A stretch of 61,193 nucleotides of DNA from IMG/VR virus record IMGVR_UViG_3300027419_000034, positions 1-61,193 of that record. One strand, given 5' to 3'. How positions within the stretch are numbered: position 1 is the stretch's first letter; each line of letters opens with the position of its first letter. Both the position numbers and the translations under genes were made by a program. This DNA comes from a virus (taxonomy: Duplodnaviria; Caudoviricetes). Below are positions 8,055-35,163 of the stretch, piece after piece. Below the pieces are notes generated by a model, which saw only the letters and a list, made by a program, of their open reading frames with translations, searched no databases and was not told the origin of the DNA.

Positions 8055-8056
8055 CT

Positions 8057-9066: not shown

Positions 9067-9072
9067 TTAAAT

Positions 9073-9216: not shown

Positions 9217-9219
9217 ACT

Positions 9220-9546: not shown

Positions 9547-9605
9547 TTAAATCTCCTCTTCAATAATCAATAAAAAAAATAATAGTGGGAAAACCCACTT
9601 CAAAT

Positions 9606-10868: not shown

Positions 10869-10963
10869 TTTTAATCTACCTCGGATTATGAACCAATGGT
10901 TCAACAGAATCCTATAGTGTTATTATCTCCTCAAATAAAAAAAGAGGAGAAAAGAAAAGAAAC

Positions 10964-12022
10964 TTAAACGTCAGTTACGTCTATGAAGACAATTGCATCA
11001 TTCTGCAAAGTCTTAGCCTGATATGCCATTTCCATTATGAGTCTCTGTTCAAGATAACTCTCGAATGGAACGATATGCAACTTAGGCTTCTGTCCCCAAG
11101 CGAGACCCATAGCCTTTCTTGCCTTTATCATCATACAACGATGTCCAGTTGCACCAGCAACTCCTCCACCATCAGGAGAAGTTCCACCAACTGTGAATGA
11201 AGGCACGTTAGGAGTTACCACGATTTTTACACCGAGATACTTTCCAATTTCTCCATTCATCAAGACTTCGCTGCTACCATACTCAGCAGCATTCACGAAC
11301 TGAGAATCCTTAAGCAATACGTTCTCCTGTTCAGGAGATACGAACAATACGAAAGGTTCACCAGCCTCATTCTTCCAAGGATTCTTAGTTGCAGAACTTA
11401 CCTGTTCAGCAGCAGGGCTTCCCGGAGTCCAATATCTGCATATAGTAGACTGTAACTTAGTCTTAGCATCTGCTACCATATCAGTAGTAAACTTATCTCC
11501 AGTTGTTAATGCAGAATCAGCCTGTGCATCTCCACCGTAAATAGTTTGCGCTCCAGCAGTTGATGCTCCAGCAGCAGTTGCACCCTTAAGAGCAGTTGCT
11601 ACAGCAATATCAACAACGTCTCCAGCCTGATAAGTTAATTCTTCCTTAGCAGCCTTTAACAAGTCGAGAGCATTTACACGCAATGCACGATTAGAGATTG
11701 CTATTGCATAATTTGCATCAGCAGGAGTGAATGTAACTCCATCTAAGTTTGCAAGGTCAGTAAAGTTTACCTCAGTAGATTCTCCTACCGAAGCCTCCCA
11801 AGAAAGACCATACTTGCTTCTTATAGGCACGATAGCATCTTTCTTTCCTTCACCAAGTTCAGTCTGGTATGCAAACTGAGCAAAATACCATTGCTTCTTA
11901 GCTGCATCAATAATATCCTTTTCCCATACTGCTGGTTCTAACTCGTAACCAGAGTATGCACTACCACGAACATCAGTTGTTGTGGTGTGACCCAATTCTT
12001 CTACAGTTTTCATTTCTGCCAT
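10964..12022 (-). CDS. Major capsid protein (HK97 fold)
   Basis: 352 aa; LFVSPEQ..LL.D..F, GEIGKYLGVKIV; follows protease/scaffold. Confidence 0.9.
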   Translation of the reverse strand: MAEMKTVEELGHTTTTDVRGSAYSGYELEPAVWEKDIIDAAKKQWYFAQFAYQTELGEGKKDAIVPIRSKYGLSWEASVGESTEVNFTDLANLDGVTFTPADANYAIAISNRALRVNALDLLKAAKEELTYQAGDVVDIAVATALKGATAAGASTAGAQTIYGGDAQADSALTTGDKFTTDMVADAKTKLQSTICRYWTPGSPAAEQVSSATKNPWKNEAGEPFVLFVSPEQENVLLKDSQFVNAAEYGSSEVLMNGEIGKYLGVKIVVTPNVPSFTVGGTSPDGGGVAGATGHRCMMIKARKAMGLAWGQKPKLHIVPFESYLEQRLIMEMAYQAKTLQNDAIVFIDVTDV

Positions 12023-12051
12023 TTATAGGACACCTCAAAAATATATTTTAT

Positions 12052-13152
12052 TTAACCTTTCATCTTAGCTGCTTGACTATTCAAGTAGTTATACATTGCA
12101 ACATCGTGGTCTACAACATCTGCCTTCTTAGCAGAGTTAGTAACAACAACCTTACTTTCTGGTTTTGTAAGTTCAGAAGTTAATTTATCAATCTTCTGAG
12201 ACATAGCCTGCATCTCCTTACTCTGAGCCTCAACCTTTGTCTGCATATCCTTTAATGCAGAATCATCAGCATTCTCAGTTGAACAAGCTGCTGGTTTCTT
12301 CTTAAAGATACCATTCTTCTCTAATATTTCAGCAATAGCTGAAAGTATTTCTACCTCAGACATCTTTGCAACTGCCTGTGCTTCCTGTGTAGGATTTGCA
12401 GCAGCAGGAGCAGTAGAAGCAGTTGTAGTTTGTTCATCTGCCATTTTACTTGACACCCCAAATATCTTATTTAAATTATCAGTTATTTCTTTATAATCGG
12501 AACAGAAAACTTTTATTTCTGGATTTCCATAAGATGAAATTTCAAAACCATTTTCAAGTTCATTTATAGAACAAGACTTATACTTAGGTTTTTCAGCTTT
12601 AACACATTCAGACATCTTACCATCTTCTAATATGATTGGTTTACTTCCCTGTGAATTATTGATATACGCTTTCTTAACAGCAGGATTTATAACAACAGAA
12701 TAATTCTTAAACGTATAATCATACATTTCTCTACCATTAGTAGTTCCTTCAACTTTTGGAGAAATACCCATCTTAGGTTTTCCAATACCAAGAGTTATAG
12801 CAGCAATAGGATTGTAAATATATAAGTCTCCAGTCTGAAAACCAGATTCTTCATCAGTCTTAATATTCTTTACTTCTCCAATCCACTCAGAAGCCTTTTC
12901 ATCTTCGTGGTCATAAAACAATTGAGAATTATATCTATCAGACCAATCAGTTATCTTGTGTGCAGATAAAATACTTTCCTTAGAATAGTATTTATCATTC
13001 CAAACACCGGGAGCCATAAGAACTTTATCCTTAATAACATAAGGAATAGTAACAGTAGAATCTCCTAAAGTTACAACTGAATCAGAAAGTTCCTTGATAA
13101 TAGGATTTTGCATAAGTTCGGCATAAGTTACGAACTCCTTTTTATCTGTCAT
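12052..13152 (-). CDS. Prohead protease/scaffold
   Basis: YDH, GISP, SVVINPA motifs; C-terminal coiled coil. Confidence 0.75.
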   Translation of the reverse strand: MTDKKEFVTYAELMQNPIIKELSDSVVTLGDSTVTIPYVIKDKVLMAPGVWNDKYYSKESILSAHKITDWSDRYNSQLFYDHEDEKASEWIGEVKNIKTDEESGFQTGDLYIYNPIAAITLGIGKPKMGISPKVEGTTNGREMYDYTFKNYSVVINPAVKKAYINNSQGSKPIILEDGKMSECVKAEKPKYKSCSINELENGFEISSYGNPEIKVFCSDYKEITDNLNKIFGVSSKMADEQTTTASTAPAAANPTQEAQAVAKMSEVEILSAIAEILEKNGIFKKKPAACSTENADDSALKDMQTKVEAQSKEMQAMSQKIDKLTSELTKPESKVVVTNSAKKADVVDHDVAMYNYLNSQAAKMKG

Positions 13153-13186
13153 ACATATCTATTGTAAAGTTCTAATTAATTAGGGT

Positions 13187-13348
13187 TTACAATAAACCCA
13201 ATTTCTTCTGATACTTGTAAACTGTGAATTTTGATACCTGAACTTCTCTAGCTATAGAAGGACGATTCATACCTTCTTTAGTAAGTTTAGCTATATGACT
13301 AATTCTCTTCTGAGAAATTGGAAACCCAACCATATCTTCATTACTCAT
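13187..13348 (-). CDS. Small HTH DNA-binding protein
   Basis: EGMNRPSIAREVQVSKFTVYKY; likely start MSNED. Confidence 0.75.
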   Translation of the reverse strand: MSNEDMVGFPISQKRISHIAKLTKEGMNRPSIAREVQVSKFTVYKYQKKLGLL

Positions 13349-14456
13349 TCTTAACAACCTTCTTTTCATCCTTCTTTTTAACAATACTTGCTGGTTCTAA
13401 AACGTGACCAGAATAAGGAGAACCACTAGAACCATCTGATAAGTATATATTCCAAGAACTATCTTTTCCAAAAGTATATACTGAATTTACATTTCTTATA
13501 GAACAACCAGAACTATTATATAATTTTGAATACATCTTTATAGCTTCTTGATACTGACTAGGTTTAACTATAATAATAGGAGATTCTTTAACATTATTAT
13601 CAAAAGCTAAACTAGATAATAATCTTCTTCTATCAATAAACTTTTCTTTAGTTAAATCCTTTCCAAGATAAAGAAGGTCATTAAGATAAATAATATTATT
13701 AGATAACAAACCCTCAACAATAATATTATCGCTAGTGAGAGAAGTTAAAGAACTTAAAATACTTTGTTCCAAATCTAACTTAGAATCATCTACCGATTCA
13801 CTCATAGACGGTTCTCTAATTTCTATATCCTTTCCAATCTTAGTAAAGATTATTCTCTGACCATTTAATACTCTCTCAAAGAATACAATATCCTCTTCTT
13901 TAGAAGATAACTTTTCTAAAACAACATTCAAATCAGTTAAAACTTCTCCAGCATAAGAAGGAATAAACTTTTTAGAATTAAAAGATAAATTTTCAAATTC
14001 AGCAATATCTTTCTTTAACAGATTCTCTATCTCAGAATCAACCTTATCATAATTATAAACTTCTTCACTATTCTCAACAGTAGCCTTTGCTTGCGTGTGA
14101 GCTATAGCAAATGCCTTACCTTCATCTCCATACTGTTTATAAACTGCATTCCAAGTCTTACGAAATACGGTTTGTTGTTTTGGAGTATAAATCTTTCTAA
14201 TATTTAAAGGAAGGTCTTTATTAGAATCATAAATAAGTTCCTCAGTAGAAATACTTGACATAGAATCTCTAAGAGTCTTTATAGCCTTAGTAGTTTCACT
14301 AACAATATCTTTAGCATTAGATATACAAAGATTAAGTTCTTCTAATTCTCTCTTAGAATCTTCTATTCTTTGCTTGTATTCACTTAATGTCTTAATTGGA
14401 TTTCCATTCTCATCCAATAACTTTACTGCTCCACTACCTCCAATAACTGTTGGCAT
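13341..14456 (-). CDS. ChaB domain fused to a degenerate ATP-dependent DNA ligase-like domain
   Basis: DLP..IR..QQTVFRKTWN...YGDEGKAFAIA (ChaB); ERVLNGQR, IVEG, DLLYLGKDL....IDRRRLL. Confidence 0.7.
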   Translation of the reverse strand: MPTVIGGSGAVKLLDENGNPIKTLSEYKQRIEDSKRELEELNLCISNAKDIVSETTKAIKTLRDSMSSISTEELIYDSNKDLPLNIRKIYTPKQQTVFRKTWNAVYKQYGDEGKAFAIAHTQAKATVENSEEVYNYDKVDSEIENLLKKDIAEFENLSFNSKKFIPSYAGEVLTDLNVVLEKLSSKEEDIVFFERVLNGQRIIFTKIGKDIEIREPSMSESVDDSKLDLEQSILSSLTSLTSDNIIVEGLLSNNIIYLNDLLYLGKDLTKEKFIDRRRLLSSLAFDNNVKESPIIIVKPSQYQEAIKMYSKLYNSSGCSIRNVNSVYTFGKDSSWNIYLSDGSSGSPYSGHVLEPASIVKKKDEKKVVKNE

Positions 14457-14466
14457 TTAAAATAAT

Positions 14467-15825
14467 CTACTCCTCTTTAATCTTTTTTTCTACGTCTGGT
14501 TTTTGAATCTTCTGAGCAATTGAATGACCCATCTTTGGCATTGCTTCTGCTCTACGGATATACTCTTCAAGTTCCTTGTCAGGAGTTAATATTCCTGCTC
14601 TTGCATACTTGTCAATTCTATCTGCTCTGCTATCAAGTTCTTCTAATGCAATCTCATTAGGAACTGCTCTTGGATAACCTTTTATTTCTTCTTGTTCACA
14701 GAGTGGTTTAAATAATTGTGTATTCCAAACATAATAAGTTCTTCTCATTATATTCTTTAATCCAATCTTTGCAAGATATTCTTGTCTAGCGAGTGTAGCG
14801 CGATTGGTTTCTTCTCCACCACCAGTAGAGAATGCCTTTGGCATTCCAAGTCCAGCAATAATTTCATCATTGAAATAATTTAATTGTTCTCTCATTCCTT
14901 CTGGTGCTTGCGGTTCTATGATTGTTGCTTTAGCCCAATATGGTAAAGCAAGAACATCTCTATTCTTAATCTTTCTTCCTTCCTCTAAAGCATTCTTTAA
15001 CTGGTTCTCTGATGGTTCGTGCTGGTCGTCTCCAACATACATTGCAAGAATTGGATAACCAAGTCTTACTAAGAATGAAGAGAATGAATCTTGGACATTT
15101 TTCTTCTGTTGAATACTTGGATAAACTGGTTCTATGATTCCATAATCGTTTATTCCATCTCCCATTGGATAAAGAGAGAAGTGAATCATTCTGTCTGCTG
15201 GAACGTATATTCCATTAGAAACGGGTTTTATGTCATTTGGAAATGGAATTATAACCTTCGGCATAGTAACACCGTAAGGAATATATTCAACATAACCCTT
15301 CGGGTCTCCATTTTCATCCAAGACAATATTTCCCATATAGTCTCTAGCGTAATCAATAACTTCGGGGTCTACCAAATCTAAGTCTACAATACGAGTGTGT
15401 TGTTTGTTATAAATCTTTTCTATGAATGCTCTTCCAAAAATAAGTTGATTCTTAAATGTTAATTCTTGAACAGTTTCCCAATCTGTGCTAGTTCCTTTCA
15501 ATGCGAGAGAATTAGTAAATCTATCTACGACTTCGATTTGTTTAGAATCTCCTTCTAAACGATATCCTGCTGATAAAATAAGTTGAGTGGTCTTATTAAG
15601 AGTGTTAAAACAGATGGGGTCTGTATAAGCTGCATACTTTAATTCTCTTGGAGAAATTCTATTGAATGGTCTTGCTACGTCTCTCTGTGTTATTCTACTA
15701 GGTTCATAGTTCTCTTCTTTATCCATCTTGTATTTTCCAGTCTTTGCAAGACGATAGAACTCTTCCTTAGTATGTTCTACTTTCTTTTGTTTTAAAATAT
15801 TTGTTATAGTATCAGTCAAGTTCAT
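14467..15825 (-). CDS. Portal protein
   Basis: 452 aa directly after terminase; YGIIEP, GYP, GMPK...ETNRATL. Confidence 0.85.
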   Translation of the reverse strand: MNLTDTITNILKQKKVEHTKEEFYRLAKTGKYKMDKEENYEPSRITQRDVARPFNRISPRELKYAAYTDPICFNTLNKTTQLILSAGYRLEGDSKQIEVVDRFTNSLALKGTSTDWETVQELTFKNQLIFGRAFIEKIYNKQHTRIVDLDLVDPEVIDYARDYMGNIVLDENGDPKGYVEYIPYGVTMPKVIIPFPNDIKPVSNGIYVPADRMIHFSLYPMGDGINDYGIIEPVYPSIQQKKNVQDSFSSFLVRLGYPILAMYVGDDQHEPSENQLKNALEEGRKIKNRDVLALPYWAKATIIEPQAPEGMREQLNYFNDEIIAGLGMPKAFSTGGGEETNRATLARQEYLAKIGLKNIMRRTYYVWNTQLFKPLCEQEEIKGYPRAVPNEIALEELDSRADRIDKYARAGILTPDKELEEYIRRAEAMPKMGHSIAQKIQKPDVEKKIKEE

Positions 15826-15873
15826 TATTTAACGCCTATTTTTTAAGGAAGTTCTTCCTTTTAAATCTTTCTA

Positions 15874-17517
15874 TCATCTTGTTATAATTCTAAATCTTCC
15901 ATCTACATTAGTCTTTTCTAATATTCCTGCATATCTTTCTACATCAGAATCTCTAGTATCGTCACCATCTAGAGTAGTAGAATAAATCACGTTAGTATTT
16001 CCACTCTTTGTAGAAGATATATCCCTTACTGCCAATGCGAGAGATATTACCATATCATCGTGGTCTATGTCTGATTGGAATGTTGCAAAACCAGTTCTAG
16101 TCTTTGTTTCTTTAAACGATTCCAATTCTCTTAACAATCTACTAGTAAGAGTATAAGTGTTTGGGTCGTCCTGACTAGTGGGTATAATCAATCTATGAGA
16201 ACTATCAGTTCTAGCTTCTATGAATCTAGTTAAGTTCAATAGTATTGCTGACCTAGCATTGGGTTGCATATTCTGTCCATCAACATTAACATACGAGTTC
16301 TTTAAATCTTGTAAGAAGTTAGCACCAATATTAGACTGGTCTATAATAGCCTTACTAGCACCATACTGCTTAATCATACCAATAACTCTTTCAGTCTGTA
16401 AAGTAGTTGGCATACCGTGATGTCTCTCAATCTTCAATATCCTAACTCCATCATTAATAATCTTATCATACTCTATTCCTTCAAAAGTTTTAGACTTAAC
16501 TAACAAAGGTCTCTTCAAATGCTGAACAGCAGTAAACACGGAGTAGTCCCCATAAACCGATGTAGAAGTTGCAAAGTCACAACCAATATATACAGGGCCA
16601 AAAGATAAATCAGCAGACTGCTGGAAAGTAAGTTCATTAAAACAACAATTACTTAAGTCTTTAGACAAGTATAACTGAGAACCTTCACCACTTGGCGAAC
16701 ACATATACTCTCTATTGAACGCGAAGGCTCCCATATCTTCACGGATTTGTTTCAACTCTTGTAGCGTGAACCTCTCAGGCCACAGGGGTGCTACCCAATG
16801 AGAAGGGTCTAAACCCAAACCATCAGTAATAACAGCACTCTTATGCATATATTTCCATTGAGTATCAGGCTTCAAAGAACGAGACTTAATCTGACCCAAA
16901 TACAAATCGTCCTCACTCTGTGGAGTTCCAATAACAACCAACTGACCCTTACGACTTTGAACTCTTCCATAAACAATAGTCCAAAACAAATTAATAATCT
17001 CACTCATCGGAGTATCAGTTTCCCTCAACAAGTCGTCACACAATAAAAGATTGGGGTGAACCCCACGAATAGTAGAATTAAACGGTTTCGTATAATACTT
17101 GTTACGATTAGTCGTAATGAACTCAGTCCTATTCCACAAAGAATCATTACCCTTAGGAACCAAGTGTTTTAAGAAAGGATTGGACTCGATGTTCTGTTCA
17201 ACAATATCAGTAGTCTTCTTTGACTGGTCAAGCGAGGATGATATAGAACAAATCTCGAAGTCCCTCTCCTTCCAAAGTTTCCAGATTGGATAACCGACCC
17301 CATAAACAGTAGTCTTTGAATGTCCAATCGGATTAACGATACAAATATAACGATTATACGAAGTCTCCTTAAACTGTTCAATCTGAAACTCAGCCATCTT
17401 AAAGCCAAGAACATTATCCATAAAAAAAGGAAAACTATTCTGACACTTCACAATAAAATCTAAGTCATTGACCTTACTTTCAAGTTCATCATAATCCAAA
17501 ACTAAACACAGCCACAA
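15874..17517 (-). CDS. terL: Terminase large subunit
   Basis: Walker A PIGHSKT, Walker B LLLCDD, IGTP, LWPE, CDFA, HDDMVISLALA. Confidence 0.95.
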   Translation of the reverse strand: MWLCLVLDYDELESKVNDLDFIVKCQNSFPFFMDNVLGFKMAEFQIEQFKETSYNRYICIVNPIGHSKTTVYGVGYPIWKLWKERDFEICSISSSLDQSKKTTDIVEQNIESNPFLKHLVPKGNDSLWNRTEFITTNRNKYYTKPFNSTIRGVHPNLLLCDDLLRETDTPMSEIINLFWTIVYGRVQSRKGQLVVIGTPQSEDDLYLGQIKSRSLKPDTQWKYMHKSAVITDGLGLDPSHWVAPLWPERFTLQELKQIREDMGAFAFNREYMCSPSGEGSQLYLSKDLSNCCFNELTFQQSADLSFGPVYIGCDFATSTSVYGDYSVFTAVQHLKRPLLVKSKTFEGIEYDKIINDGVRILKIERHHGMPTTLQTERVIGMIKQYGASKAIIDQSNIGANFLQDLKNSYVNVDGQNMQPNARSAILLNLTRFIEARTDSSHRLIIPTSQDDPNTYTLTSRLLRELESFKETKTRTGFATFQSDIDHDDMVISLALAVRDISSTKSGNTNVIYSTTLDGDDTRDSDVERYAGILEKTNVDGRFRIITR

Positions 17518-17669
17518 TCCTTCTTAAACTCTTTCTCAAACGCCTTCTTCTCAGAAAACTCTAACCTATCCTTAAACTCCATACGCTTACCAATATTCCA
17601 GTTAGTCACAGGACGATAATAACCCACAACCCTAGAATACACTTCACACTTCTGACCACATTCACTCAT
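17502..17669 (-). CDS. Stand-alone NrdD C-terminal glycyl-radical domain peptide (55 aa)
   Basis: MSECGQKCEVYSRVVGYYRPVTNWNIGKRMEFKDR...; not in the ORF track. Confidence 0.85.
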   Translation of the reverse strand: MSECGQKCEVYSRVVGYYRPVTNWNIGKRMEFKDRLEFSEKKAFEKEFKKDCGCV

Positions 17670-17680
17670 AAACAATCAAC

Positions 17681-18352
17681 TCAATTACTCTGAACCCTAA
17701 CAACACCACTACGAATAGCCTTACGCCTACGCAAAGCATCAACAAACTCAGGACTAGGTTTATTAAAAACAATCTTCCCATCAATAAGTTCTGCGTCAAA
17801 TAAATCAAACTGATTATCCTGCAACTTCCTAAACCCATCAACAACATCCTGCTGACCAAAAACATTAACCTGAGTATTATTCGTAACCTTACTAGCCGCC
17901 TTAATCTCACCCAACCTCTCCAAAGCCGTCTTCAACTGAGCGTGAACCTCCTTAATAATCACAAGCTGAGTAAAAACATTACGGTCATTCATACTCTCCC
18001 CAAAATTATCCTGATAACGCTTCAACAACAACTTAGTCGAAGAATACAAATCCTCAAACTCACCCTCAACACGACCAACCTCAGTCAAAACCAAACCACC
18101 AATAGCCTGACCCTCAGCCGAACTCGCCAATAGTTTCTCCCCACTCTTCCTCAAACCACGAACATCATCAACAGAAACAACATACCCACAACCATTCAAC
18201 TTCTCCGTAACCTCCTCAACCGACTTCCCCCTCACAAACAAGTCCACACAAGCCAACTTCTCCCAATCCCCAACAACAACATCAGAACCCATACAACAAT
18301 CTACCCAAAACAACCATATGACAAAACAACTATATAAACCTTTCCCCTCCAC
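17681..18352 (-). CDS. Putative terminase small subunit
   Basis: N-terminal HTH-like, helical core, upstream of terL; true start probably MGSDVV (18292). Confidence 0.55.
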   Translation of the reverse strand: MEGKGLYSCFVIWLFWVDCCMGSDVVVGDWEKLACVDLFVRGKSVEEVTEKLNGCGYVVSVDDVRGLRKSGEKLLASSAEGQAIGGLVLTEVGRVEGEFEDLYSSTKLLLKRYQDNFGESMNDRNVFTQLVIIKEVHAQLKTALERLGEIKAASKVTNNTQVNVFGQQDVVDGFRKLQDNQFDLFDAELIDGKIVFNKPSPEFVDALRRRKAIRSGVVRVQSN

Positions 18353-18931
18353 TAACCATACTAAGTATAATATAATAACATATATACTATATATACTATA
18401 TTACTAAAAAAAAATAATAAAAAAAAATAAGTATAAAGGTGTGTTACTTATATATGTATTTTTATTTTTTCGTGAATGGTATTTATATTTGTTTGTGTTG
18501 TTTTAGTATATTAATGTTTGTATTGTTTTTTTGTAGCATAAGTTTATATATAACAAATAGGTATATATACTTACTCGTATAATAGAAAAGAACACATAAC
18601 CAGTATATAAATAAACAATGTATTATAAACACATACACATATAATATAACGAACAAATAATCAACTTGGTAGGTAGTAGTTAATATCGTATTAACAAAAC
18701 ATAGGTTATTAATTGTTGGCTTCCTGTTATATTAGGAAGACCTGTTCTTTTTTTGTTTTGTTTGGAATGGGTGGTATATTCAGATAGAAGATTATCTACT
18801 ATCTTTTGGTAGATTGTCTTTATACTATCTTTGTATCATCTGTGGGTTTTCTTATTAGAATATTCGTCTAAATAAGATGGTATTCCTACTGTTAAGATGT
18901 CATTGTCTTATGGTGGGGGAAAGTGGTTTAG
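18353..18931. promoter_or_regulatory. Divergent control region between late (-) and early (+) arms
   Basis: Gene orientation switch, multiple TATA-like boxes, hairpins at 18788-18820. Confidence 0.6.
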
Positions 18932-19174
18932 ATGGATAAACTTAGCTTCTTGGAGGAGCTAGAAATACCAGAGAAGGAAGGACAGAAGACGAGTCGGGCT
19001 TACCTGATGGTTGCTGACTTGAACAATGCTGGCGATAAGAAGCTTGCAGATGCAGTCCGTAAGGTTGCTAATGCGAAGAACCTTAAGGATTCTCAAATCT
19101 GCAAACTGATTGTCGCTAACAGTTTGTTTGAGAAGAAGGAATACGATGAGTTGGTTAAGCAGATTCTTGCTTAA
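18932..19174 (+). CDS. Putative ribbon-helix-helix regulator, paralog of 21738..21923
   Basis: LEELEIPEKE...YLMV.D...AVRKVANAK. Confidence 0.55.
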   Translation: MDKLSFLEELEIPEKEGQKTSRAYLMVADLNNAGDKKLADAVRKVANAKNLKDSQICKLIVANSLFEKKEYDELVKQILA

Positions 19175-19372
19175 TCTTTCCTTTCTTTTTCATTAATTTT
19201 TTTGTAGGGTTTCAGCATTCATTTGTTGGCCTTGCGGAAGATGGTTTAGATGGACAATAAACGATTCTTCTTTACCAAGAAGAAGAACTACCAATTGTTT
19301 AGTGTTGGTGGTAAAAGTTTCGTTGAGGAAATAGGTTAATTTCCTCTATTCTTTTTCTTTAGATTCATATAG

Positions 19373-19744
19373 TTGATTCTTATGACAAAACCCTTAAAGT
19401 TTCTTGATTCGGCAAGCGGTATAATGGAACACCGCAGGCTGGTTAAACGCAACCACATAGAACACAAGTTGCGGCAGATTAGACGCAAGAAGGAAGAAGC
19501 TGGAAGCGCACCAGCGCACGTTAGGCCAATCGGGGTTTATGGCGATGCTAAGACCCAAGAGTTTCTTAACGATACACAGCTTAAGATTAGTATGCAAATC
19601 AAGGAAAGACTGGAACGCCAACGGGCTAAAGAGTTACACCTTGAAGAAGAACGGATAAAAGACGTTCAGGAAAGGCAGGCACACTATCAGAAACAGATAG
19701 ATGCCATTAGCAAGAGGGGTTTAGAGAAGTGGCTTAGAGTCTAA
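19373..19744 (+). CDS. Hypothetical protein
   Basis: 123 aa charged ORF. Confidence 0.6.
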   Translation: MILMTKPLKFLDSASGIMEHRRLVKRNHIEHKLRQIRRKKEEAGSAPAHVRPIGVYGDAKTQEFLNDTQLKISMQIKERLERQRAKELHLEEERIKDVQERQAHYQKQIDAISKRGLEKWLRV

Positions 19745-19772
19745 GCCCGTTCTCAATCTTCTATCTTCTATC

Positions 19773-20006
19773 TTGGAAGATAAGATATATATTACTTTAT
19801 TAAAGGCGTTTTTACTTATGGCTAGAACTATTGGTAAAGCTAAGATTAATAGGATTAAGGCTTTAGTTAAAGAGTTTAAAGCTAAAGGTTGTCCTAGTAT
19901 TAGGGAAGCTGTTAGAGCCGAATTACCATCTGAGTGGTGGGATATTTGGGAGATGGCAGACCAAGAGATTGATAGAGTAATCTGGGATGAGATTTTTAAT
20001 AACTAG
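19773..20006 (+). CDS. Hypothetical protein
   Basis: Likely start MARTIGK. Confidence 0.6.
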   Translation: MEDKIYITLLKAFLLMARTIGKAKINRIKALVKEFKAKGCPSIREAVRAELPSEWWDIWEMADQEIDRVIWDEIFNN

Positions 20007-20298
20007 ATTAAAGGCGAAAATACTATGTCTTTACAAAACTATGCTGACGCATATAATCATCTTGGTCATACAATAGTTTGTATTCTATATCCAAATGAAG
20101 TTTGTATAGAATGCGAAACTTGTTGCGAGGTTTTATCTTCGTATAAAAAGAAATAAGTTTTATACTGACTTTCTGGAAAGTGGTTAGATTGAAGAGGAGA
20201 ACTTTAATCGGTTAAATCTTCTAGGATAAGGATAGACTGAACTTTAAGTAACCGTAGGTCTATCTTCCTATTTATACTAAATCATAAGTGTTTATAAA

Positions 20299-20517
20299 AT
20301 GTCTAAGATTACATATATACGAGTATCAAGAGTTAAAGGATTAGCAACTGGTCTTAAGCACAGATTATATTATTTGTTTACAAATCCTCTTACTAGAAAG
20401 ATAATAGCAAGTCAAGAGGATTACTGTAAAGGTTATTCTGACGCTTTAGAAGATTTAGTTAATAAGATAAAAGAAATAGAAAAAGATAGTAAAAAGGTAG
20501 ATGAAGATGGAAGATAA
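20299..20517 (+). CDS. Hypothetical protein
   Basis: ORF in early cluster. Confidence 0.55.
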   Translation: MSKITYIRVSRVKGLATGLKHRLYYLFTNPLTRKIIASQEDYCKGYSDALEDLVNKIKEIEKDSKKVDEDGR

Positions 20518-20845
20518 GTCTAATGAGATTACTGTTATGAATCTACAAACTATGGAAATGTATAAGATAGATGCAGTAACTTATCTTAAGGCTCTTATTA
20601 AAGCTAATATGGATAAAGATAATCCATATAGTGATGATGAAGTTCAAGAGATGACAGAAACTAATATAGATATTTTAACACCCGAAGATGATATGTCTAT
20701 TTGGGGTATATCTGATGGTGGTTTTATTATTACTTCTGAATGGATAATAAAAGATATAGAAGAAATGCAAGAATCTTTTGAAGTAGATAAAGATTTACTT
20801 AAAACTATATCACAATTAAATTATTCTGAAAGAGTAATGATGTAA
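20501..20845 (+). CDS. Hypothetical acidic protein
   Basis: ORF in early cluster. Confidence 0.65.
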   Translation: MKMEDKSNEITVMNLQTMEMYKIDAVTYLKALIKANMDKDNPYSDDEVQEMTETNIDILTPEDDMSIWGISDGGFIITSEWIIKDIEEMQESFEVDKDLLKTISQLNYSERVMM

Positions 20846-20939
20846 GATGAAATATGGTAGTCCAGTATTAAAGATTTATATCTTTGATGCTACCTGTATG
20901 ACAATAGATAAAACAAATTACTTTATATGCTGATGTCTT

Positions 20940-21146
20940 ATGACAGATGAAACTATACAAGAACGTCCTGTCACTCTAATGGATGTTCAGAGGGCAGGAC
21001 AATTCTTGATAGATAATAAGATTACACTACCAGAGACTATAGCTAGTTGTCCACCAGAAGTAATATGGAAGTGGGCATTAGACTCTGGTTATATTCCTAA
21101 AGATACTATTCTTAAAGATGAGAAGAAGGAAGAGTTAAGATGTTAG
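20940..21146 (+). CDS. Hypothetical protein
   Basis: ORF in early cluster. Confidence 0.55.
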   Translation: MTDETIQERPVTLMDVQRAGQFLIDNKITLPETIASCPPEVIWKWALDSGYIPKDTILKDEKKEELRC

Positions 21147-21262
21147 ATGAAAACATTATCAAGGGAATCTTAATCTTGATTATGGGTATAATGTGGTATT
21201 TACTCTTCAAACATAATAAAAGATATAGTAATTCTATTAAATATAAACTAGGAGTGATTTAA

Positions 21263-21535
21263 ATGAAAAATATAACAGAGAGTAATATGCACGTTGATAG
21301 TGCAAACATAACTACCCAAAGAGAAGGTGGAAGCATAAAATACAATGTCATAACTGCAAATATCCGCGTATTTACATATTCGGATAAACAGACAATAAAG
21401 ACTATTGAAAAGATTAATAGTCTTATAAGTGAACTTGATGTTTACTATAATAAACAGAAACAAAAGACAAAGCGCAAATACACAAAGCACAAGAAGAACA
21501 AAGTTGGAAGACCTAAGAAGTCTAAGAAGAAGTAG
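21263..21535 (+). CDS. Hypothetical protein with basic AT-hook-like tail
   Basis: KVGRPKK; GGAGTGA RBS. Confidence 0.6.
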   Translation: MKNITESNMHVDSANITTQREGGSIKYNVITANIRVFTYSDKQTIKTIEKINSLISELDVYYNKQKQKTKRKYTKHKKNKVGRPKKSKKK

Positions 21536-21737
21536 TTCAACCTATCCGCAAGACCCCACAATAGGATAATCTTCGGTATCATAAGATAAGTAAGTTAATC
21601 TAAGCGTTCACGGACTTTGCTAAGATTAGAAGAAGCCTTACTTATTTTATACCAAAGAGGATTTGTCCATCTTTCCCCTGAACTGTTATAACCTTGATAT
21701 CAAGCAAGGTATAATAGCAGGACTGGAGGGATGCAGA

Positions 21738-21923
21738 ATGAATGACGACATACTCGGAGACCTGAATATTCCGGTCAAAGAGCAGAAGTCTGCCACAAAG
21801 CACTATCTCATCTTCACAGATGAGAATCCCGTCTGGAAGGCACTTGATAGTGTCGCTAAGCAGAAGGGAAGCACAGGGCAGGTAGTCGGAGAGGCAATCT
21901 TGAAAAAGGTTCTCTGCGACTAA
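21738..21923 (+). CDS. Putative ribbon-helix-helix regulator, paralog of 18932..19174
   Basis: ILGDLNIPVKE...YLIFTD...ALDSVAKQK; GGAGG RBS. Confidence 0.55.
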   Translation: MNDDILGDLNIPVKEQKSATKHYLIFTDENPVWKALDSVAKQKGSTGQVVGEAILKKVLCD

Positions 21924-21986
21924 GTAGAATATGGAAGATGCGAGTCTTCCTATTCTTTATTTTTATCTAGAATAGGGTAGATTTCG

Positions 21987-22256
21987 GTGGATTTTACTAA
22001 TATTACTAATCAAGACGTATCAGTAATATCACCTAATCCAGACGAATATAGAAAGATATTAAGTAAGATAGAGAGAGAAGAAAAAGAGACTAATATTCTA
22101 TCTTTAAAGATTTTAGAGCATCTTAAGACTATTAAATTGCCTTATAGTGCTAAGCGTAGATTGTTATTAAGTGCTATTTCATTGTGTAATAGTGCTTTAG
22201 TAGAAGAGGAGGATAAGTTATATTATGGTGATACAGTAGATAAAGAGATTATCTGA
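21987..22256 (+). CDS. Hypothetical protein
   Basis: 89 aa ORF. Confidence 0.55.
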   Translation: MDFTNITNQDVSVISPNPDEYRKILSKIEREEKETNILSLKILEHLKTIKLPYSAKRRLLLSAISLCNSALVEEEDKLYYGDTVDKEII

Positions 22257-23146
22257 TGGAGACTCTAGGCTCAAACATCTTTTGGTGGCATAGGATAAAT
22301 TCCTATGGATATTATGAGAGTGTAGGATATATATCGTATATCCGAAGAACGAGGCGTTTGTTTTTTCGGCACGCCTACAGGTCAGATAATCTTTATAATA
22401 AAAATCAACTCTAAACTATTATAGGAATGAACCATATCTTATCATCTCTAGGACGGAGTAATTAACCGCTAGCCGATAATTAAAGGTAAGATAAAATAGT
22501 CAAAGATTGGTTGTCTTTGAAGTTCCTATATAGAGAGAATTTGATAAGCATAAATAGTGCTGAAACCATCTTTCAGAAGGAGGGTTTAATATGGGTTTGC
22601 TGAGAGAGGATAAACTCTGCCCTGCGGGAATCGTAATCTCGTAAAGCAACGGTCTGGGATGGCAGCAATACTAAAATATATCATAGATTAATAGAATATA
22701 GTTCGATTGGGAAAGAAAGTAAAACCATTAGGTTGAGGATATGACCGATTTAAAGTAGGGTTTATCTTGAACGATACTAAAACAGATTCTAGACTCTGTA
22801 GTTAGGCGTTTAATTGTTAAGATATTCTACGGTTCTATATTCTAATCAAATATGATATATAGTCTAAATGTCTTTAGAGGGCAGATAAATTAATGTTGTG
22901 TGAAAAGTTCCAGACTGCTATAATCAAAGTAGCTCATATTAGGTTTGAATCTAATATGTTATGATAGTCTGTTACAAAGTGTCACAGTATAACTTAAAAT
23001 GTTATATTACCGTATAGTCGGAGATGCTCTAAAGTCAGGACACATATAAGATATAATCTAGGTTATATAGATGTGCAAGATATGAAGACCAACCTTCGCC
23101 AAGAATAATATGGGATTACTTGGACAAATATTAAAGATTATTCTTG
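22246..23146. ncRNA. Candidate large structured ncRNA
   Basis: ~900 nt without ORF; at least 11 nested inverted repeats. Confidence 0.6.
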
Positions 23147-23419
23147 CGTTCTAAACCATATAGATTATATTTAAAAGATGGAAGTGATTTAAATGAAAAA
23201 GTTAGGCAATTGGCACGACAAAATGAGAATACAAAAACACAGAGAAAATAGAGAAAGAAAACTTTATCTCAAATCAAGAAAGTGAATAAAATGTCTTTTC
23301 GTTTTTATCTTTCAGATGAACAGATTAAAAACTTGATAGACTTTGCTTTTGAAGAAAGACCATATAAAGTTCAAGAGTTACTTATCAAGATTCAAAAAGA
23401 ACAAAAGTTGTGATTAAAG

Positions 23420-23671
23420 ATGAGCATAGAAATAGATACTTACAAATCTACAACCGGAAAACTAACTTGCGATGGTTGTAGTAATCCTATAAAGATAGGA
23501 GAAGAAAGAAGACGTATTACAGTAACAAATAGATTTTATGACTGTGGAAACAGAGAATGCGAAGTCTCAAATCACGCTTTCTTCCATCCAAAATGCTATA
23601 ATAAAGTAATTAAAGACGCACAGAAAAAGTTTAAAGACAAAAGACGATATAGACCTATACGAAATACCTAA
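23420..23671 (+). CDS. Zn-finger protein
   Basis: CxxC...I..GE...HxxC. Confidence 0.65.
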   Translation: MSIEIDTYKSTTGKLTCDGCSNPIKIGEERRRITVTNRFYDCGNRECEVSNHAFFHPKCYNKVIKDAQKKFKDKRRYRPIRNT

Positions 23672-23733
23672 AGATTTTTTTATTTTTATTCGCTTATATA
23701 CTTTTTTAAGGGCAAAAAGAGGTTAGATTTTTT

Positions 23734-23952
23734 ATGAATAAACAATATTGGATAGATTTTGTAAGTGGATTAGGAATTTGTTTAGTAGAATTTCTAATTT
23801 ATCTAATATGGATTGCTTTTATAGCTCTTATTTTGTGGCTTGCGTTTAATGCTACAGATATAAGTAATTCTGTTGGTAAATTGTCTTTTCACGATGCAGG
23901 AATGTTTGCTTTAATGTGGCACTTCCTTTTCTATATACACATTAAGAAATAG
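23734..23952 (+). CDS. Small membrane protein
   Basis: Hydrophobic segments. Confidence 0.6.
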   Translation: MNKQYWIDFVSGLGICLVEFLIYLIWIAFIALILWLAFNATDISNSVGKLSFHDAGMFALMWHFLFYIHIKK

Positions 23953-24419
23953 GTGATTTATTATGGGACATAAACATATTTTTGATAAACCAGTAGGAGT
24001 TACTAGGTGGGGACACCGTGTAATGGGTTGCGTCTGTGGAAAGAAGGATATTCTCCTACAGGAAAAGAAATCACAACCTAAAGTTGAAGAAGATATAGAA
24101 ACTTTGATGTGATTAAATGAAGAAAGATAAAGTTGTAGAACTTCCAAAACCAAAACTACAATTTGTAATAGATATACTTTCCAATCCATTAGTTTTACTA
24201 ATACTAATGTATATTATTGGGGTTATGTCTGGTTCATATAGTTGTAGATTAAATTGAATAATTATTACTCAGTAATATAATTATAATTTTCATATAGATA
24301 TGCCTATTACTTTGCGCCACAAATAATAGACTAACTCTATAGCTATACTAAAATCGGTGGTTGGTATAGTTGTAATGCTTAGATTATAATTATATTGGGA
24401 ATTAATAATTATTTAAGAG

Positions 24420-24767
24420 TTGATTATTATGCAAGAAGAAGTTAGTGAAATACCTAATACTGATGAAGAAGACGAATCTTCATTTGATGATGGAAGATTA
24501 ATAGATGAGTCTGAACCATACGAACAATTAGTAGAAGAAGAAGAGAATAAGATAGATGAAAAACTAACAAAGTTTATTCAAGATATAGTTCTTGGTGACT
24601 CTCCAACCTTTAGTGGTTTAGAAAATACTGCTAGAACAATAAATTACTTAAAGACTGCTTTAGAATATATTAGTGTTCACGATGATGAAAACTTTTCTAA
24701 GATGAGAAAGCATTTCGAGGAACAGGATAAAAAGATTAAAGAGGAAGTGACTATAAATGAAAAATAA
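24420..24767 (+). CDS. Hypothetical acidic protein
   Basis: Coupled ORF. Confidence 0.65.
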   Translation: MIIMQEEVSEIPNTDEEDESSFDDGRLIDESEPYEQLVEEEENKIDEKLTKFIQDIVLGDSPTFSGLENTARTINYLKTALEYISVHDDENFSKMRKHFEEQDKKIKEEVTINEK

Positions 24768-24941
24768 GATTGTTATTTCTGATGATGAACATTTAAATTA
24801 TGCAAATGGTGTTGCACAGGCATTAGATAAAATGTCTGGTGAAATAATACTCAATTCTTTTATTTCAGATAAAAAGAAAATAAGAGAACGTAATAAAGAA
24901 ATTGCAAAGAGACTTAAAAACTGTGCTTATCTATTAGAAGG

Positions 24942-25139
24942 GTGATAGTTATGTCAATGACTAGAAAAGATTATAGAAAGATTGCAGAAGAAATAAGAAA
25001 TATGTATAAACTTCAAGATTATGCTGGTTCTTATATTATTAAAACTCTTGCTTCAAATATGGCAGTTATGTTAAAGAAAGATAATCCCCGTTTTGATAAA
25101 AATAAATTTATCGAAGCGTGTGAAATAGAGTATGATTAA
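24942..25139 (+). CDS. Small phage protein
   Basis: MTRKDY..IA...DNPRF...KF..AC, a pattern familiar from phage early proteins. Confidence 0.65.
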   Translation: MIVMSMTRKDYRKIAEEIRNMYKLQDYAGSYIIKTLASNMAVMLKKDNPRFDKNKFIEACEIEYD

Positions 25140-25383
25140 TATGTCAGAAGATGTAAAAACACCAAAGACACCAGAAGAAAAAGGATATACTTTCATTGTC
25201 ACTTTTAGAACTGGTAGTAATGCTTTAACAGAACCAGAAGCTAAAAAGAAAGTAGAAGACCTAATCAATCTTATAGGTAAAGAATTACCTATAGGAAGAT
25301 TGAAAGTTAGATTAGCAGAATCAGATTAATGTTTCTATCTCATTTGAGAGAGTTTTAAAAACAAAAGTAGGTGAATAAAAACT

Positions 25384-25653
25384 ATGGCAGACAATGCGTG
25401 GAACGTAACGTCTCCTGCACAAGGAAAGGTAGTAGTTGTCAGGAACGGTAGCGAATCTCCATATGAGTATCCATCAACTACAAAGTTGGTAGATGCAGTA
25501 AACGATGCCGCTAATGAGGAAGGACTCACTTCGGTAATCGTAAAGACCTCGCGCAATGCAGAGGACACTATCCCGCCAGCAAGGAGTGGAGATACACTCG
25601 CTTCTTTCGGTGGAGTGGTTTACGTCTTTGCAAAGGCACAGGGCGCACAGTAA
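25384..25653 (+). CDS. Putative ubiquitin-like (beta-grasp) protein
   Basis: 89 aa directly upstream of E1; final strand VVYVF followed by KAQG-AQ. Confidence 0.6.
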   Translation: MADNAWNVTSPAQGKVVVVRNGSESPYEYPSTTKLVDAVNDAANEEGLTSVIVKTSRNAEDTIPPARSGDTLASFGGVVYVFAKAQGAQ

Positions 25654-25725
25654 ATTGTTTTGAAGACTTTATTTTTGTCTTCTTTTTTATTTTTTTACGC
25701 TTATACTATATTAAAGGGTTTTATT

Positions 25726-26322
25726 ATGACTAGGAATCTTATAATAATTGGTTGTGGTGGAGTAGGTAGCAATATTGCTATGCTAGTCGCTAGGCACGAA
25801 AGTAATTGTGAATTTAATAAGATTGTGCTAGTAGACCACGATGTAGTCGAGAAGAAGAATCTTTCTAGACAGTTCTTTTTTGAGTGCGATATTGGTAAAC
25901 CAAAAGTCGTTTCTCTTAAAGAGAATCTTTTGAAGGTTTGTCCAGAACTTAGTATTGATATTTATCAACAGAAGATTGTATCTGTTGATGACCTTATGTT
26001 TCTTAAGGCTTATGATGATGGTTATAATACTGCTATTCTTGCTACAGATAATACTGTTAGTAAGAGATTGGTTTATGAGAATTATAATATGGCTGAGAAG
26101 ATTATAATTAATTGTGATAGAGATTATTATGAGATTAAGTTTGAGTTAGATAATGAGGAACTTAATGCTTGGAGTATTGGGACTGGTTATAATTCTACTC
26201 AGACTTGGCTTAGTAATTTAGCTGCATCTGCTTATGTTGTTGGTTTATTCTGTGAACTAACACCTTTAGAACTTTCACATACGAGGAGAAATATAATTGG
26301 TTCGGTGATTGAAGATGAGTGA
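25726..26322 (+). CDS. ThiF/E1-like adenylyltransferase
   Basis: IIGCGGVG, DHDVVEKKNLSRQ, GKPK, ATDN; start MTRN. Confidence 0.92.
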   Translation: MTRNLIIIGCGGVGSNIAMLVARHESNCEFNKIVLVDHDVVEKKNLSRQFFFECDIGKPKVVSLKENLLKVCPELSIDIYQQKIVSVDDLMFLKAYDDGYNTAILATDNTVSKRLVYENYNMAEKIIINCDRDYYEIKFELDNEELNAWSIGTGYNSTQTWLSNLAASAYVVGLFCELTPLELSHTRRNIIGSVIEDE

Positions 26323-27649
26323 TGAATCAGAAGCTATTGTTAGGAGTGCCGCTAGTAGATTAAATTCAGAGTATCTTAATGTTACTATTCCAGAAGGATA
26401 TACTATGACTATACCAGCTAATTCTAATGGAACTACTACTATTAGTGGAAATGTTACTATAGTAGATGGTAAAGATTCTGAATGGAAAGTAGATAAGGCA
26501 AAGAAGACTACTAAGACAAAACAGAAAACTCTTAATAAGTCTGTTGCAGAAATTAGAGATGAACTTGGTTTAGTTACTGCTAAAACTGAGGATGGTAAAA
26601 CTATAGTTACTGTTGCTAAAACTATACCAGTTAAAGGAGATTTTGTTATACATCAAGTTAATCCATCATCTATAAAATATATTGGTATGGTAGTTCAAGA
26701 ACCTAGAGAATATTCTCCATCCGGTTATCAACTACGCGATAATGAATATGGTATTATGATACTAGATGATAGTTTTGCTTCTGGTAATAATCTAAATTAT
26801 GCTCTTAAGAAAGATGGAAGAAATGGAGTATATTGTAATATTTCTTCTCTAGAATATATTAGTCACTCTAATACTTTTATTAGTGGTAATCTCGATACTA
26901 CATATTATCGTCCTAAAACACTAAATAGGATTACTGATAGTTTTTATAAACTAATTACTGATTTTGAAGCAAAGTTTAAAACTGATTTGTCTTTGCTAGA
27001 AAAAGATATCTCTGATGATATTTCTATCATTGTTAGAGATAAGTATAATCATCAGTATGACCAGATTATGATAAATCATAAGAATGAGAAAGCAGAAATG
27101 GAACGTAGATTTGCTGGTATGATAGCAATGCCTAACATATCTTATAGTGATTATCTTACTTTTATTGAACACGGTATGTTCTTTGTTAAAAAGGATAATG
27201 CTATTCTTATATTTAGAAAGGGAACTCATACTGTTAAGATGATTACTATTAGAGATAATGCTATGGGTCTTGAATTACCAGTTCCATTTACTGTTAAAGG
27301 ATATATTGCCATACAATTCTTTAATTCTGGTAATGGATATAAGTATAATGGAGCATACTTCTTTAATAGTAATTTTAGTCCAGTAAAAAGTTATCACATA
27401 TCTAGTAGTAGTGGTAATATTTGCACAGGAGATTTGAAATCAAATCTTAATACTCTTTCATTTAATGCAAGTGAAATAGATAAGGCTATGGATGATATAC
27501 TTTCTATGCTAGAAATAGTAAATCCAACTAGTCCATATAATAATAGAGTTGATGCTAAAGTAGATAAAGCATTAAATAAAGTATTTTGTTGGACTCACAA
27601 GAAATCTAAGGCTTCTTGTGGTTGTGACGAAGAAGACGAGGGATATTAA
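26309..27649 (+). CDS. Putative E2-like conjugating enzyme (C-terminal domain)
   Basis: YHISSSSGNICTGDL resembles the E2 H-x(n)-G-x-I-C site; lies between E1 and JAB. Confidence 0.6.
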   Translation: MKMSDESEAIVRSAASRLNSEYLNVTIPEGYTMTIPANSNGTTTISGNVTIVDGKDSEWKVDKAKKTTKTKQKTLNKSVAEIRDELGLVTAKTEDGKTIVTVAKTIPVKGDFVIHQVNPSSIKYIGMVVQEPREYSPSGYQLRDNEYGIMILDDSFASGNNLNYALKKDGRNGVYCNISSLEYISHSNTFISGNLDTTYYRPKTLNRITDSFYKLITDFEAKFKTDLSLLEKDISDDISIIVRDKYNHQYDQIMINHKNEKAEMERRFAGMIAMPNISYSDYLTFIEHGMFFVKKDNAILIFRKGTHTVKMITIRDNAMGLELPVPFTVKGYIAIQFFNSGNGYKYNGAYFFNSNFSPVKSYHISSSSGNICTGDLKSNLNTLSFNASEIDKAMDDILSMLEIVNPTSPYNNRVDAKVDKALNKVFCWTHKKSKASCGCDEEDEGY

Positions 27650-34842: not shown

Positions 34843-35160
34843 GATAGTTATAATATCTAAATGTCTAGATATCTAAACATCATAACTTTGTTTAAATGTC
34901 TAGATATTACAATATCTATACAAAAGATATATATATCTTTAGGTTCATTATATTATTACATTCAATATGTTGTAATATTATAACTGAATGTAATCATATA
35001 AGATAAATATATAATATACAAATATATAATATATAATAACATATAATATATTAAAGATTTAAATTCAATAAGTCGTTACTTCGTAACGACTATAATATGT
35101 TAATATATAAACATATATTATATATTAATATAATATCCTATATAAGTAGGAGTTGAAGTA
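34843..35160. other. Putative replication origin
   Basis: Very AT-rich; direct repeat taaatgtctagatat (34858, 34893); inverted repeats 34955-34994 and 35071-35091; next to helicase. Confidence 0.55.
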
Positions 35161-35163
35161 GTA

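What the first reader, a model, noticed from the sequence alone, without database searches (positions are those of the whole stretch)
22246..23146. ~900-nt ORF-free, multi-domain base-paired region: candidate new large ncRNA
Seen: nested helices 22246-56/22382-92 (11 bp, enclosing hairpins 22289-307, 22325-343, 22352-376); 22420-27/22523-30 (enclosing 22500-520); 22676-85/22851-60 plus 22692-701/22835-44; 22872-79/23027-34 (enclosing 22935-958); 23100-09/23137-46. Known: tRNA-rich phages carry large ncRNAs such as GOLLD and ROOL. I cannot match this one to any family, or to group I/II intron cores. Inference: an undescribed large RNA or a chain of RNAs; strand unknown.
Basis: partly seen in the sequence, partly recalled or inferred. 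Interest (0 to 1): 0.8.

Follow-up and report, generated by a model that had tools for sequence, protein, structure and literature searches.

The report
Long non-coding gap in phage early region
A roughly 0.9-kb stretch of a groundwater phage genome really does lack genes and contains the reported hairpins, but it folds no better than the genes beside it and has no relatives, so a new large RNA is unproven.

Summary
The window is one complete 61,193-nt virus record. The gene-free stretch is real. From 22257 to 23192 (936 nt) no frame has coding signal under table 11, table 4, TAG=Q or TAA=Q. It is the longest non-tRNA non-coding stretch of the genome.

The folding is above shuffles but not above the genome's own background. 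The 901-nt z is -3.7 to -4.7. Three of 22 control windows, all coding neighbours, score -5.4 to -6.7. The 1-kb running mean of local z ranks 76 of 290. Both strands fold equally well. G+C (0.332) equals the genome's (0.331), against 0.451 for the tRNAs.

No Rfam family matches, and six-frame Pfam and PHROGs searches find no protein relic. I found no homologue anywhere I could search. Covariation and transcription are therefore untestable here.

Best reading: a lineage-specific, co-transcribed spacer with cis-acting hairpins. A novel large RNA remains possible, at about 0.15-0.2. Interest is low.

The parts
22257..23192 (.). Non-coding stretch of 936 nt between the stop of ORF 21987-22256 and the next credible start (ATG at 23193).
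   Evidence: No frame has a positive codon-usage score. The stops-ignored score equals shuffles. Stop codons number 27 of 312, 31 of 311 and 23 of 311 in the three + frames. Alternative genetic codes do not open it. Six-frame Pfam and PHROGs searches give nothing below E = 0.1. It contains the largest gap without an ORF of 45 aa or more in the genome.
22241..22397 (+). Domain 1: a 14-bp closing helix around four hairpins. Its 5' arm is the last five codons and stop of the upstream ORF.
   Evidence: MFE -52.0 kcal/mol, z -5.05 on + and -4.91 on - with 200 shuffles each. Inverted repeat I5. The boundaries were chosen at the helix ends, which inflates z. The fixed 200-nt window 22201-22400 has z -3.34 and ranks 16 of 298.
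22256..22414 (+). 52-aa ORF whose ATG overlaps the upstream TGA. Probably not a gene.
   Evidence: Listed. Codon score -18 to -36 per 40 codons. No PHROGs match.
22420..22530 (+). 8-bp helix TATAGGAA/TTCCTATA enclosing hairpin 22500-22520.
   Evidence: Read from the sequence. Present in the MFE. The hairpin has a perfect 7-bp stem. The enclosing piece 22398-22669 has z of only -1.87.
22591..22644 (+). 17-aa ORF preceded by AAGGAGG and a 7-nt spacer. Possible micro-ORF, unproven.
   Evidence: GGAGG is not this phage's usual ribosome-binding site.
22676..22860 (.). Inverted repeat with 26-nt arms (two perfect 10-bp halves around an internal loop), 133 nt apart.
   Evidence: I2, 85% complementary. 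Score 14 against 9.73 +/- 1.11 in shuffles. Among the few best inverted repeats in the genome. The fold of 22670-22866 gives z -2.43 on + and -3.14 on -. None of the four mismatches is a G-U wobble (read).
22869..23037 (+). 11-nt helix (I16) enclosing hairpin 22935-22958 (I17).
   Evidence: The piece 22867-23192 has z -2.75.
23100..23146 (+). Perfect 10-bp stem with a 27-nt loop and no following T-run.
   Evidence: I18. No terminator-like site is called in the region.
21933..21950 (+). Terminator-like hairpin with a T-rich tail, upstream of the region, after the ORF ending at 21923.
23193..23285 (+). First credible downstream ORF (30 aa), with the phage's usual GGAAGTGAT ribosome-binding site.

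Best explanation
This is a lineage-specific, truly non-coding spacer of about 0.94 kb inside the rightward block of small early genes of an orphan 61-kb groundwater phage. It is most likely transcribed together with the flanking + strand genes. If its A-T-rich hairpins and inverted repeats do anything, they act in cis, as RNA processing or stability sites or as protein-binding sites, like the hairpins found all over this early region. It is probably not a discrete, ornate large RNA.

Shown: it is non-coding, the helices exist, the folding is at the background level of the early region, and it has no known family and no homologue.

Inferred: co-transcription, from the gene orientation on both sides and from a G>C skew like that of the neighbouring genes. 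The cis role is also inferred.
For: - Non-coding.
- All flanking ORFs are on the + strand. GC skew stays at +0.18 to +0.32 across the region, as in the neighbouring genes.
- No promoter-like enrichment: 16 sites found against 11.4 +/- 3.2 expected. No terminator-like site lies inside the region.
- Folding is no stronger than in coding neighbours. The 901-nt z is -3.74 or -4.66. Windows at 18900, 19900 and 20900 give -6.44, -6.69 and -5.36, and 25400 gives -4.64.
- The local 200-nt mean z is -1.41, against -2.28 for 18701-21901.
- Control pieces fold as well as domain 1: 21801-22000 has z -4.61 and 18690-18930 has z -4.68.
- G+C is 0.332, the genome 0.331 and the tRNAs 0.451.
- The z-scores are equal on the two strands.
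- The two related whole records examined have no comparable gap. G001 (51.6 kb) has none of 300 nt or more. G004 (43.5 kb) has one of 367 nt.
Against: - 936 nt with no coding signal at all is five times longer than any other intergenic gap in this early block. It is the longest non-tRNA gap in a compact genome. A cis spacer would not obviously need that length.
- Domain 1 is a well-defined five-way junction: z -5.05, and the centroid is nearly identical to the MFE.
- The 26-nt inverted repeat is among the best in the genome.
- Co-transcription is inferred, not observed.
- The shuffle sets in my calibrations were small (10-15), so those z-scores are rough.
Confidence: 0.45

Rival explanations
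1. It is a discrete, undescribed large structured RNA, or a chain of two to five smaller RNAs, made from the + strand and acting in trans.
For: - It is a long non-coding stretch retained in a compact phage, with no residual coding signal.
- The 901-nt fold is below every shuffle (0 of 20 on each strand).
- Domain 1 has z -5.05.
- The phage carries 27 tRNA genes. Large RNAs such as ROOL and GOLLD are associated with tRNAs and prophages (PMC5737381, passages).
Against: - Folding is not above that of coding neighbours.
- G+C is not raised, unlike the tRNAs.
- The two strands are equally structured.
- The helices are almost all perfect A-T-rich Watson-Crick repeats, and no hairpin loop read is a GNRA or UNCG tetraloop.
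- No promoter or terminator brackets it.
- No Rfam family matches at E <= 10 beyond three chance-level hits.
- The nearest tRNA is 22 kb away.
Confidence: 0.2
2. It is a DNA-level element: a secondary replication origin, a cluster of protein-binding inverted repeats, a recombination site, or one or two small inverted-repeat (MITE-like) insertions at 22241-22397 and 22676-22860.
For: - The helices are symmetric Watson-Crick inverted repeats that score equally on both strands.
- Two units are bounded by terminal inverted repeats of 16 and 26 nt.
- GAGGATA occurs three times in 22200-23192 (one of them, at 22209, lies inside the upstream ORF) against twice in the rest of the genome (Bonferroni p about 0.01).
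Against: - There are no tandem repeats or iterons in the region, and no other k-mer is enriched.
- A better origin candidate exists at 34843-35163, with A-T-rich tandem repeats and the densest inverted repeats.
- No second copy of either inverted-repeat unit occurs in the genome.
- I saw no target-site duplication when reading the flanks.
- No DNA-binding family was found for the neighbouring small proteins.
Confidence: 0.2
3. It is a functionless remnant: old, fully decayed early genes, or DNA picked up by illegitimate recombination and not yet deleted.
For: - The early block consists of fast-evolving orphan ORFs. None of its 25 ORFs has a tblastn match in 1.1 Mb of related loci (TerL control positive).
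- Composition equals the genome mean.
- No known family matches.
Against: - There is no residual codon signal, so any decay would be old, yet compact phage genomes tend to lose useless DNA.
- The identical sequence occurs in a second sample from a different study (piece 22225-22755, 0 differences).
Confidence: 0.15

Closest known systems
ROOL and GOLLD large ornate RNAs (Rfam families; Weinberg et al. 2017, PMC5737381, passages read)
   Same: Size class of several hundred nucleotides, occurrence in a phage that carries many tRNA genes, and no coding capacity.
   Different: No match to any Rfam model, including these, at E <= 10. It is not adjacent to tRNA genes: the nearest is at 45363, 22 kb away. 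No conserved junctions or pseudoknots can be shown. G+C is not raised.
Non-coding, hairpin-rich spacers and leaders of phage early operons (general knowledge, recalled)
   Same: It lies between co-oriented small early genes. It has A-T-rich hairpins of the same kind and strength as the neighbouring early region.
   Different: It is much longer (936 nt) than the other gaps of this block, which are 62-198 nt by the ORF list. It has no recognisable promoter or terminator.
Non-coding phage replication origins with repeats (general knowledge, recalled)
   Same: A non-coding stretch in the early region with several inverted repeats.
   Different: There are no iterons or tandem repeats. It is not more A-T-rich than the genome. 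A better candidate lies at 34843-35163.
Candidate structured RNAs of viruses predicted by comparative genomics (Fremin et al. 2023, PMC10690425, abstract and outline read)
   Same: That screen covers millions of viral sequences and yields cis-regulatory and terminator-like motifs.
   Different: By its abstract those candidates showed nucleotide covariation, which needs several homologous copies. This region has no homologue, so it is unlikely to be among them. Their lists are in supplements that I could not open.

Membership tests
GOLLD / ROOL (and any other Rfam family) | A match to the family covariance model at or near its gathering score. | tested here: not met
   The gathering-threshold scan of the whole window gives 27 matches, all tRNA. 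A scan at E <= 10 over 21900-23400 gives three hits only: HrrF 20.2 bits against a gathering score of 77, RybB 17 against 40, and cow-rumen-3 12.6 against 86.7.
GOLLD / ROOL | Often located near tRNA genes and in prophages (PMC5737381). | tested here: not met
   All 27 tRNA genes lie at 45363-55573. The region is 22 kb upstream of the first one.
Large structured ncRNA in general | Helices supported by compensatory base changes among homologues. | not testable with these tools
   No homologue was found. Searches: phage records, IMG/VR, metagenome contigs, GTDB genomes, five related records by blastn, and a covariance model of domain 1 over 1.15 Mb. The two runs that hold the DNA show 0 differences.
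Large structured ncRNA in general | Folding energy clearly beyond that of the surrounding genome. | tested here: not met
   Three of 22 control windows are more negative, and the 1-kb running mean ranks 76 of 290.
Group I / group II introns | A match to the intron core models. | tested here: not met
   No such hit at E <= 10. No interrupted host gene was found by six-frame search.
Intrinsic terminator | A G+C-rich hairpin followed by a T-run. | tested here: not met
   The only site in 21500-24000 is at 21933-21950, upstream of the region.
Replication origin with iterons | Clustered direct repeats and an A-T-rich unwinding stretch. | tested here: not met
   There is no tandem repeat between 21995 and 24965. 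Only short two-copy direct repeats occur. G+C equals the genome's.
MITE-like insertion | Terminal inverted repeats, a target-site duplication, and several copies. | tested here: inconclusive
   Terminal inverted repeats are present (I5, I2). There is no second copy in the phage. I saw no duplication when reading the flanks. The host genome is unknown, so copies there could not be sought.

The most novel reading that the evidence does not exclude
The stretch encodes an undescribed large structured RNA of 0.8-0.9 kb, or a tandem set of RNA domains headed by the five-way-junction domain at 22241-22397. It would be specific to an orphan lineage of tRNA-rich groundwater phages and unrelated to GOLLD, ROOL or any Rfam family.
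Probability: 0.15. Interest if true: 0.6.

Novelty: new member of a known kind. Interest (0 to 1): 0.25.

Why it matters
If it were a real large RNA, it would add a new class of phage-borne ornate RNA from an unexplored groundwater lineage. As the evidence stands, it is an unusually long non-coding spacer. The useful result is the calibration. In this genome an MFE z of -4 to -5 and a set of nested A-T-rich helices are also found in ordinary coding sequence of the early region. Such observations alone should not be read as evidence for an RNA gene.

Tried and rejected
Known RNA family. Rejected: the Rfam gathering scan and the E <= 10 scan gave nothing credible.

Hidden protein gene.
- Alternative codes (table 4, TAG=Q, TAA=Q) open nothing long.
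- Six frames read with X at stops give 0 Pfam families and one PHROGs hit at E = 0.13.
- The codon scores are negative.
- Small ORFs with Shine-Dalgarno-like motifs: only the 17-aa ORF 22591-22644 has a strong motif. GGAGG is not this phage's usual site.

Homologue hunt. All of these were blank for the region:
- blastn against phage records.
- Flanking 83-aa and 89-aa proteins in IMG/VR, in the 5.8-billion-protein index (itself only) and in the 1.84-billion representative library (itself only).
- TerL alone in IMG/VR. TerL homologues: 67, the best non-self at 81% on a 3,195-nt contig, then 52%, 45% and 44% or less.
- TerL alignment in IMG/VR: 162 relatives, 80 kept, the best at 40-41%.
- Metagenome contigs: 2 loci at 42-44%.
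- GTDB genomes: 2 loci at 41% and 22%.
- blastn of the region against 5 related records: two chance-level matches of 21-28 nt.
- Covariance model R1 of domain 1 over 87 sources and 1,147,396 bases: itself only.
- Two exact-word scans of IMG/VR: one hit in an unrelated G+C-rich contig with no similarity in the flanks, and none.
- tblastn of 25 early ORFs against all loci: none. The TerL control was positive.
- This scan's earlier notes on look-alike stretches: none.

Sequencing runs. Two DNA runs hold the stretch, and no RNA holder is listed. Laying them showed 0 differences, so there is no variation to use.

Repeats within the genome. There is no second copy. K-mer enrichment is weak. No motif is shared with the other intergenic regions.

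The small protein upstream. By eye (recalled pattern) the 61-aa ORF 21738-21923 might be a ribbon-helix-helix regulator. Pfam gives no family. The single-sequence AlphaFold model has mean pLDDT 60.5 and two helices. This is unresolved and I did not use it.

The 200-nt z-score scan covered 298 of 610 windows (positions 1-29,900). I did not scan the rest, to save run time.

They may list motifs that I could not compare.

Full report
**What the window is.** The 61,193-nt window is one whole IMG/VR virus record, rated 100% complete by CheckV. Two DNA runs labelled groundwater metagenome hold it.
- Structural genes lie on the minus strand at 1-18352 and 55810-61193: TerL at 15874-17517, with portal and major head protein nearby.
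- A long + strand block at 18.9-55.5 kb starts with about 25 small ORFs. It holds RecT at 36624-37361 and 27 tRNA genes at 45363-55573.
- The finding lies about 4 kb into the + strand early block.

**Is it gene-free?** Largely yes.
- ORFs of 30 aa or more inside or overlapping it are 22256-22414 (+, 52 aa), four short ones in 22271-22684 and 23144-23251.
- A codon-usage log-odds model trained on 23 long ORFs is negative in all six frames from 22240 to 23080. Neighbouring small ORFs reach +10 to +28 per 40 codons.
- With stop codons ignored, the best-frame score of 22257-23192 equals dinucleotide shuffles (z -0.93 on +, -0.21 on -). By contrast, 12 of 14 neighbouring small ORFs have z >= 2. So there is not even a residual coding signal.
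- Table 4, TAG=Q and TAA=Q open nothing long.
- Six-frame reads with X at stops give no Pfam family and one PHROGs hit at E = 0.13.
- The stretch ends at ATG 23193, which follows GGAAGTGAT, the ribosome-binding motif typical of this phage.
- It contains the largest gap without an ORF of 45 aa or more in the genome (22650-23419). The other gaps of 300 nt or more are two tRNA arrays and an A-T-rich repeat region at 34843-35163.
- The DNA is not an assembly artefact. A 21,585-nt contig of run X1 (possibly the source) spans 19000-27000 with 0 differences. A contig from a second study covers 22225-22755 with 0 differences.

**Are the helices there?** Yes, all of them. The strongest unit is 22241-22397: a 14-bp closing helix around four hairpins, MFE -52.0 kcal/mol, z -5.05. 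Its 5' arm is the last five codons and the stop of the upstream ORF. The second notable unit is a 26-nt inverted repeat at 22676-701/22835-60.

**Is that more than chance?** Against shuffles of the same sequence, yes.
- The 901-nt fold has z -3.74 on + and -2.90 on -.
- The best inverted repeat scores 14, against 9.73 +/- 1.11 in shuffles.

Against this genome's own background, no.
- I folded 22 other 901-nt windows on their sense strand with 10-12 shuffles each. The region gave z -4.66. Windows starting at 18900, 19900 and 20900, all coding, gave -6.44, -6.69 and -5.36, and 25400 gave -4.64. The remaining 18 ranged from -0.30 to -3.63.
- In a scan of 200-nt windows (298 of 610 done, 15 shuffles each), the nine windows of the region average z -1.41 on +. 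The 33 windows of the early block at 18701-21901 average -2.28. The 1-kb running mean of the region ranks 76 of 290.
- Control pieces fold as well as domain 1. The end of a gene plus its terminator (21801-22000) has z -4.61. The leader at 18690-18930 has z -4.68.
- Perfect local hairpins: 4 in the region, against 2.04 per kb genome-wide. Of 603 windows of 950 nt, 90 hold 4 or more.
- Only the 26-nt inverted repeat stands out. Nine of 201 windows reach a top score of 13 or more, and two of them are this repeat.

**Other signs expected of a structured RNA are missing.**
- G+C is 0.332, the genome is 0.331, and the phage's tRNAs average 0.451.
- The two strands give the same z-scores.
- The helices are almost entirely perfect Watson-Crick A-T-rich repeats. 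The four mismatches of the 26-nt repeat include no G-U, and I5 has one G-U (read).
- No promoter-like excess is seen (16 sites against 11.4 +/- 3.2), and no terminator-like site lies inside the region.
- No Rfam family matches.

**Relatives.** The phage is an orphan.
- The flanking 83-aa and 89-aa proteins match only themselves in the two large protein libraries.
- The best accessible TerL relatives are 40-44% identical.
- None of 25 early ORFs has a tblastn match in 1.1 Mb of related loci (control).
- blastn, a covariance model of domain 1, and two exact-word scans found no copy of the region.
- The two whole related records examined have no comparable gap.
- Covariation therefore cannot be tested, and no RNA data were available.

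**What it most likely is.** I read it as a non-coding, lineage-specific spacer inside the early operon, probably co-transcribed. The flanking genes are all on the + strand, and the G>C skew matches theirs. Its hairpins would act in cis, if at all (confidence 0.45). The rivals are:
- a genuine new large RNA or chain of RNAs (0.2);
- a DNA-level element such as protein-binding repeats, a secondary origin or MITE-like insertions (0.2);
- a functionless remnant (0.15).

The length of the gap and its complete lack of coding signal keep the RNA and DNA-element readings alive. The calibration removes the structural argument that motivated the finding.

**Comparison with known systems.** By the passages I read, ROOL and GOLLD are large, often lie near tRNAs and occur in prophages (PMC5737381). 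This region shares only its size and its phage setting. It fails the model match and the tRNA adjacency. A large comparative screen of viral sequences reports covariation for its candidate structured RNAs, which needs several homologous copies (PMC10690425, abstract), and this region has no homologue. I could not check that screen's supplementary lists.

**Verdict.** The interpretation cannot be decided and currently lacks positive support. Interest is low (0.25).

Noticed in passing
window 18700-22000: The coding part of the early block is predicted to fold more strongly than the flagged region. The 901-nt windows at 18900, 19900 and 20900 have z -6.44, -6.69 and -5.36. Ten of 33 200-nt windows have z <= -3. 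Terminator-like hairpins lie at 18720, 19153, 19325 and 21933. The cause is unknown.
   Followed up: partly
window 34843-35163 (to about 35425): An A-T-rich non-coding region with tandem repeats of 7-25 nt periods. It has the densest inverted repeats and hairpins in the genome and lies upstream of the RecT module. It is a better replication-origin candidate than the flagged region.
   Followed up: partly
window 23135-23413: One + frame is open across this span except for a single TAG. It joins ORF 23144-23251 to ORF 23282-23413 and is the best-scoring frame throughout. It competes with the 30-aa ORF at 23193, which has a good ribosome-binding site. This may be an interrupted or read-through small gene.
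   Followed up: no
window 21738-21923: A 61-aa ORF with a GGAGG motif 8 nt upstream, followed by a terminator-like hairpin. By eye it resembles a ribbon-helix-helix regulator (recalled pattern). Pfam finds nothing, and the AlphaFold model is of low confidence (pLDDT 60.5).
   Followed up: partly
whole window, gene starts: The usual ribosome-binding motif is GGTGAT, AGTGAT or GAGGTG, 4-6 nt before the start, rather than GGAGG. The host is unknown.
   Followed up: partly
window 23700-24900: The best ungapped inverted repeat outside the A-T repeat region (score 16) lies in the windows starting at 23701 and 24001. I did not locate it exactly.
   Followed up: no
window 45363-55573: ARAGORN and Rfam each find 27 tRNA genes.
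   Followed up: partly
window 19373-19744 and 21663-21923: Two early ORFs lie in G+C-rich stretches (windows of 0.41-0.47 and about 0.41-0.44, against 0.33 for the genome). They have weak codon signal (z 1.51 and 0.59) and strong predicted folding. They may be recently acquired genes or something else.
   Followed up: no
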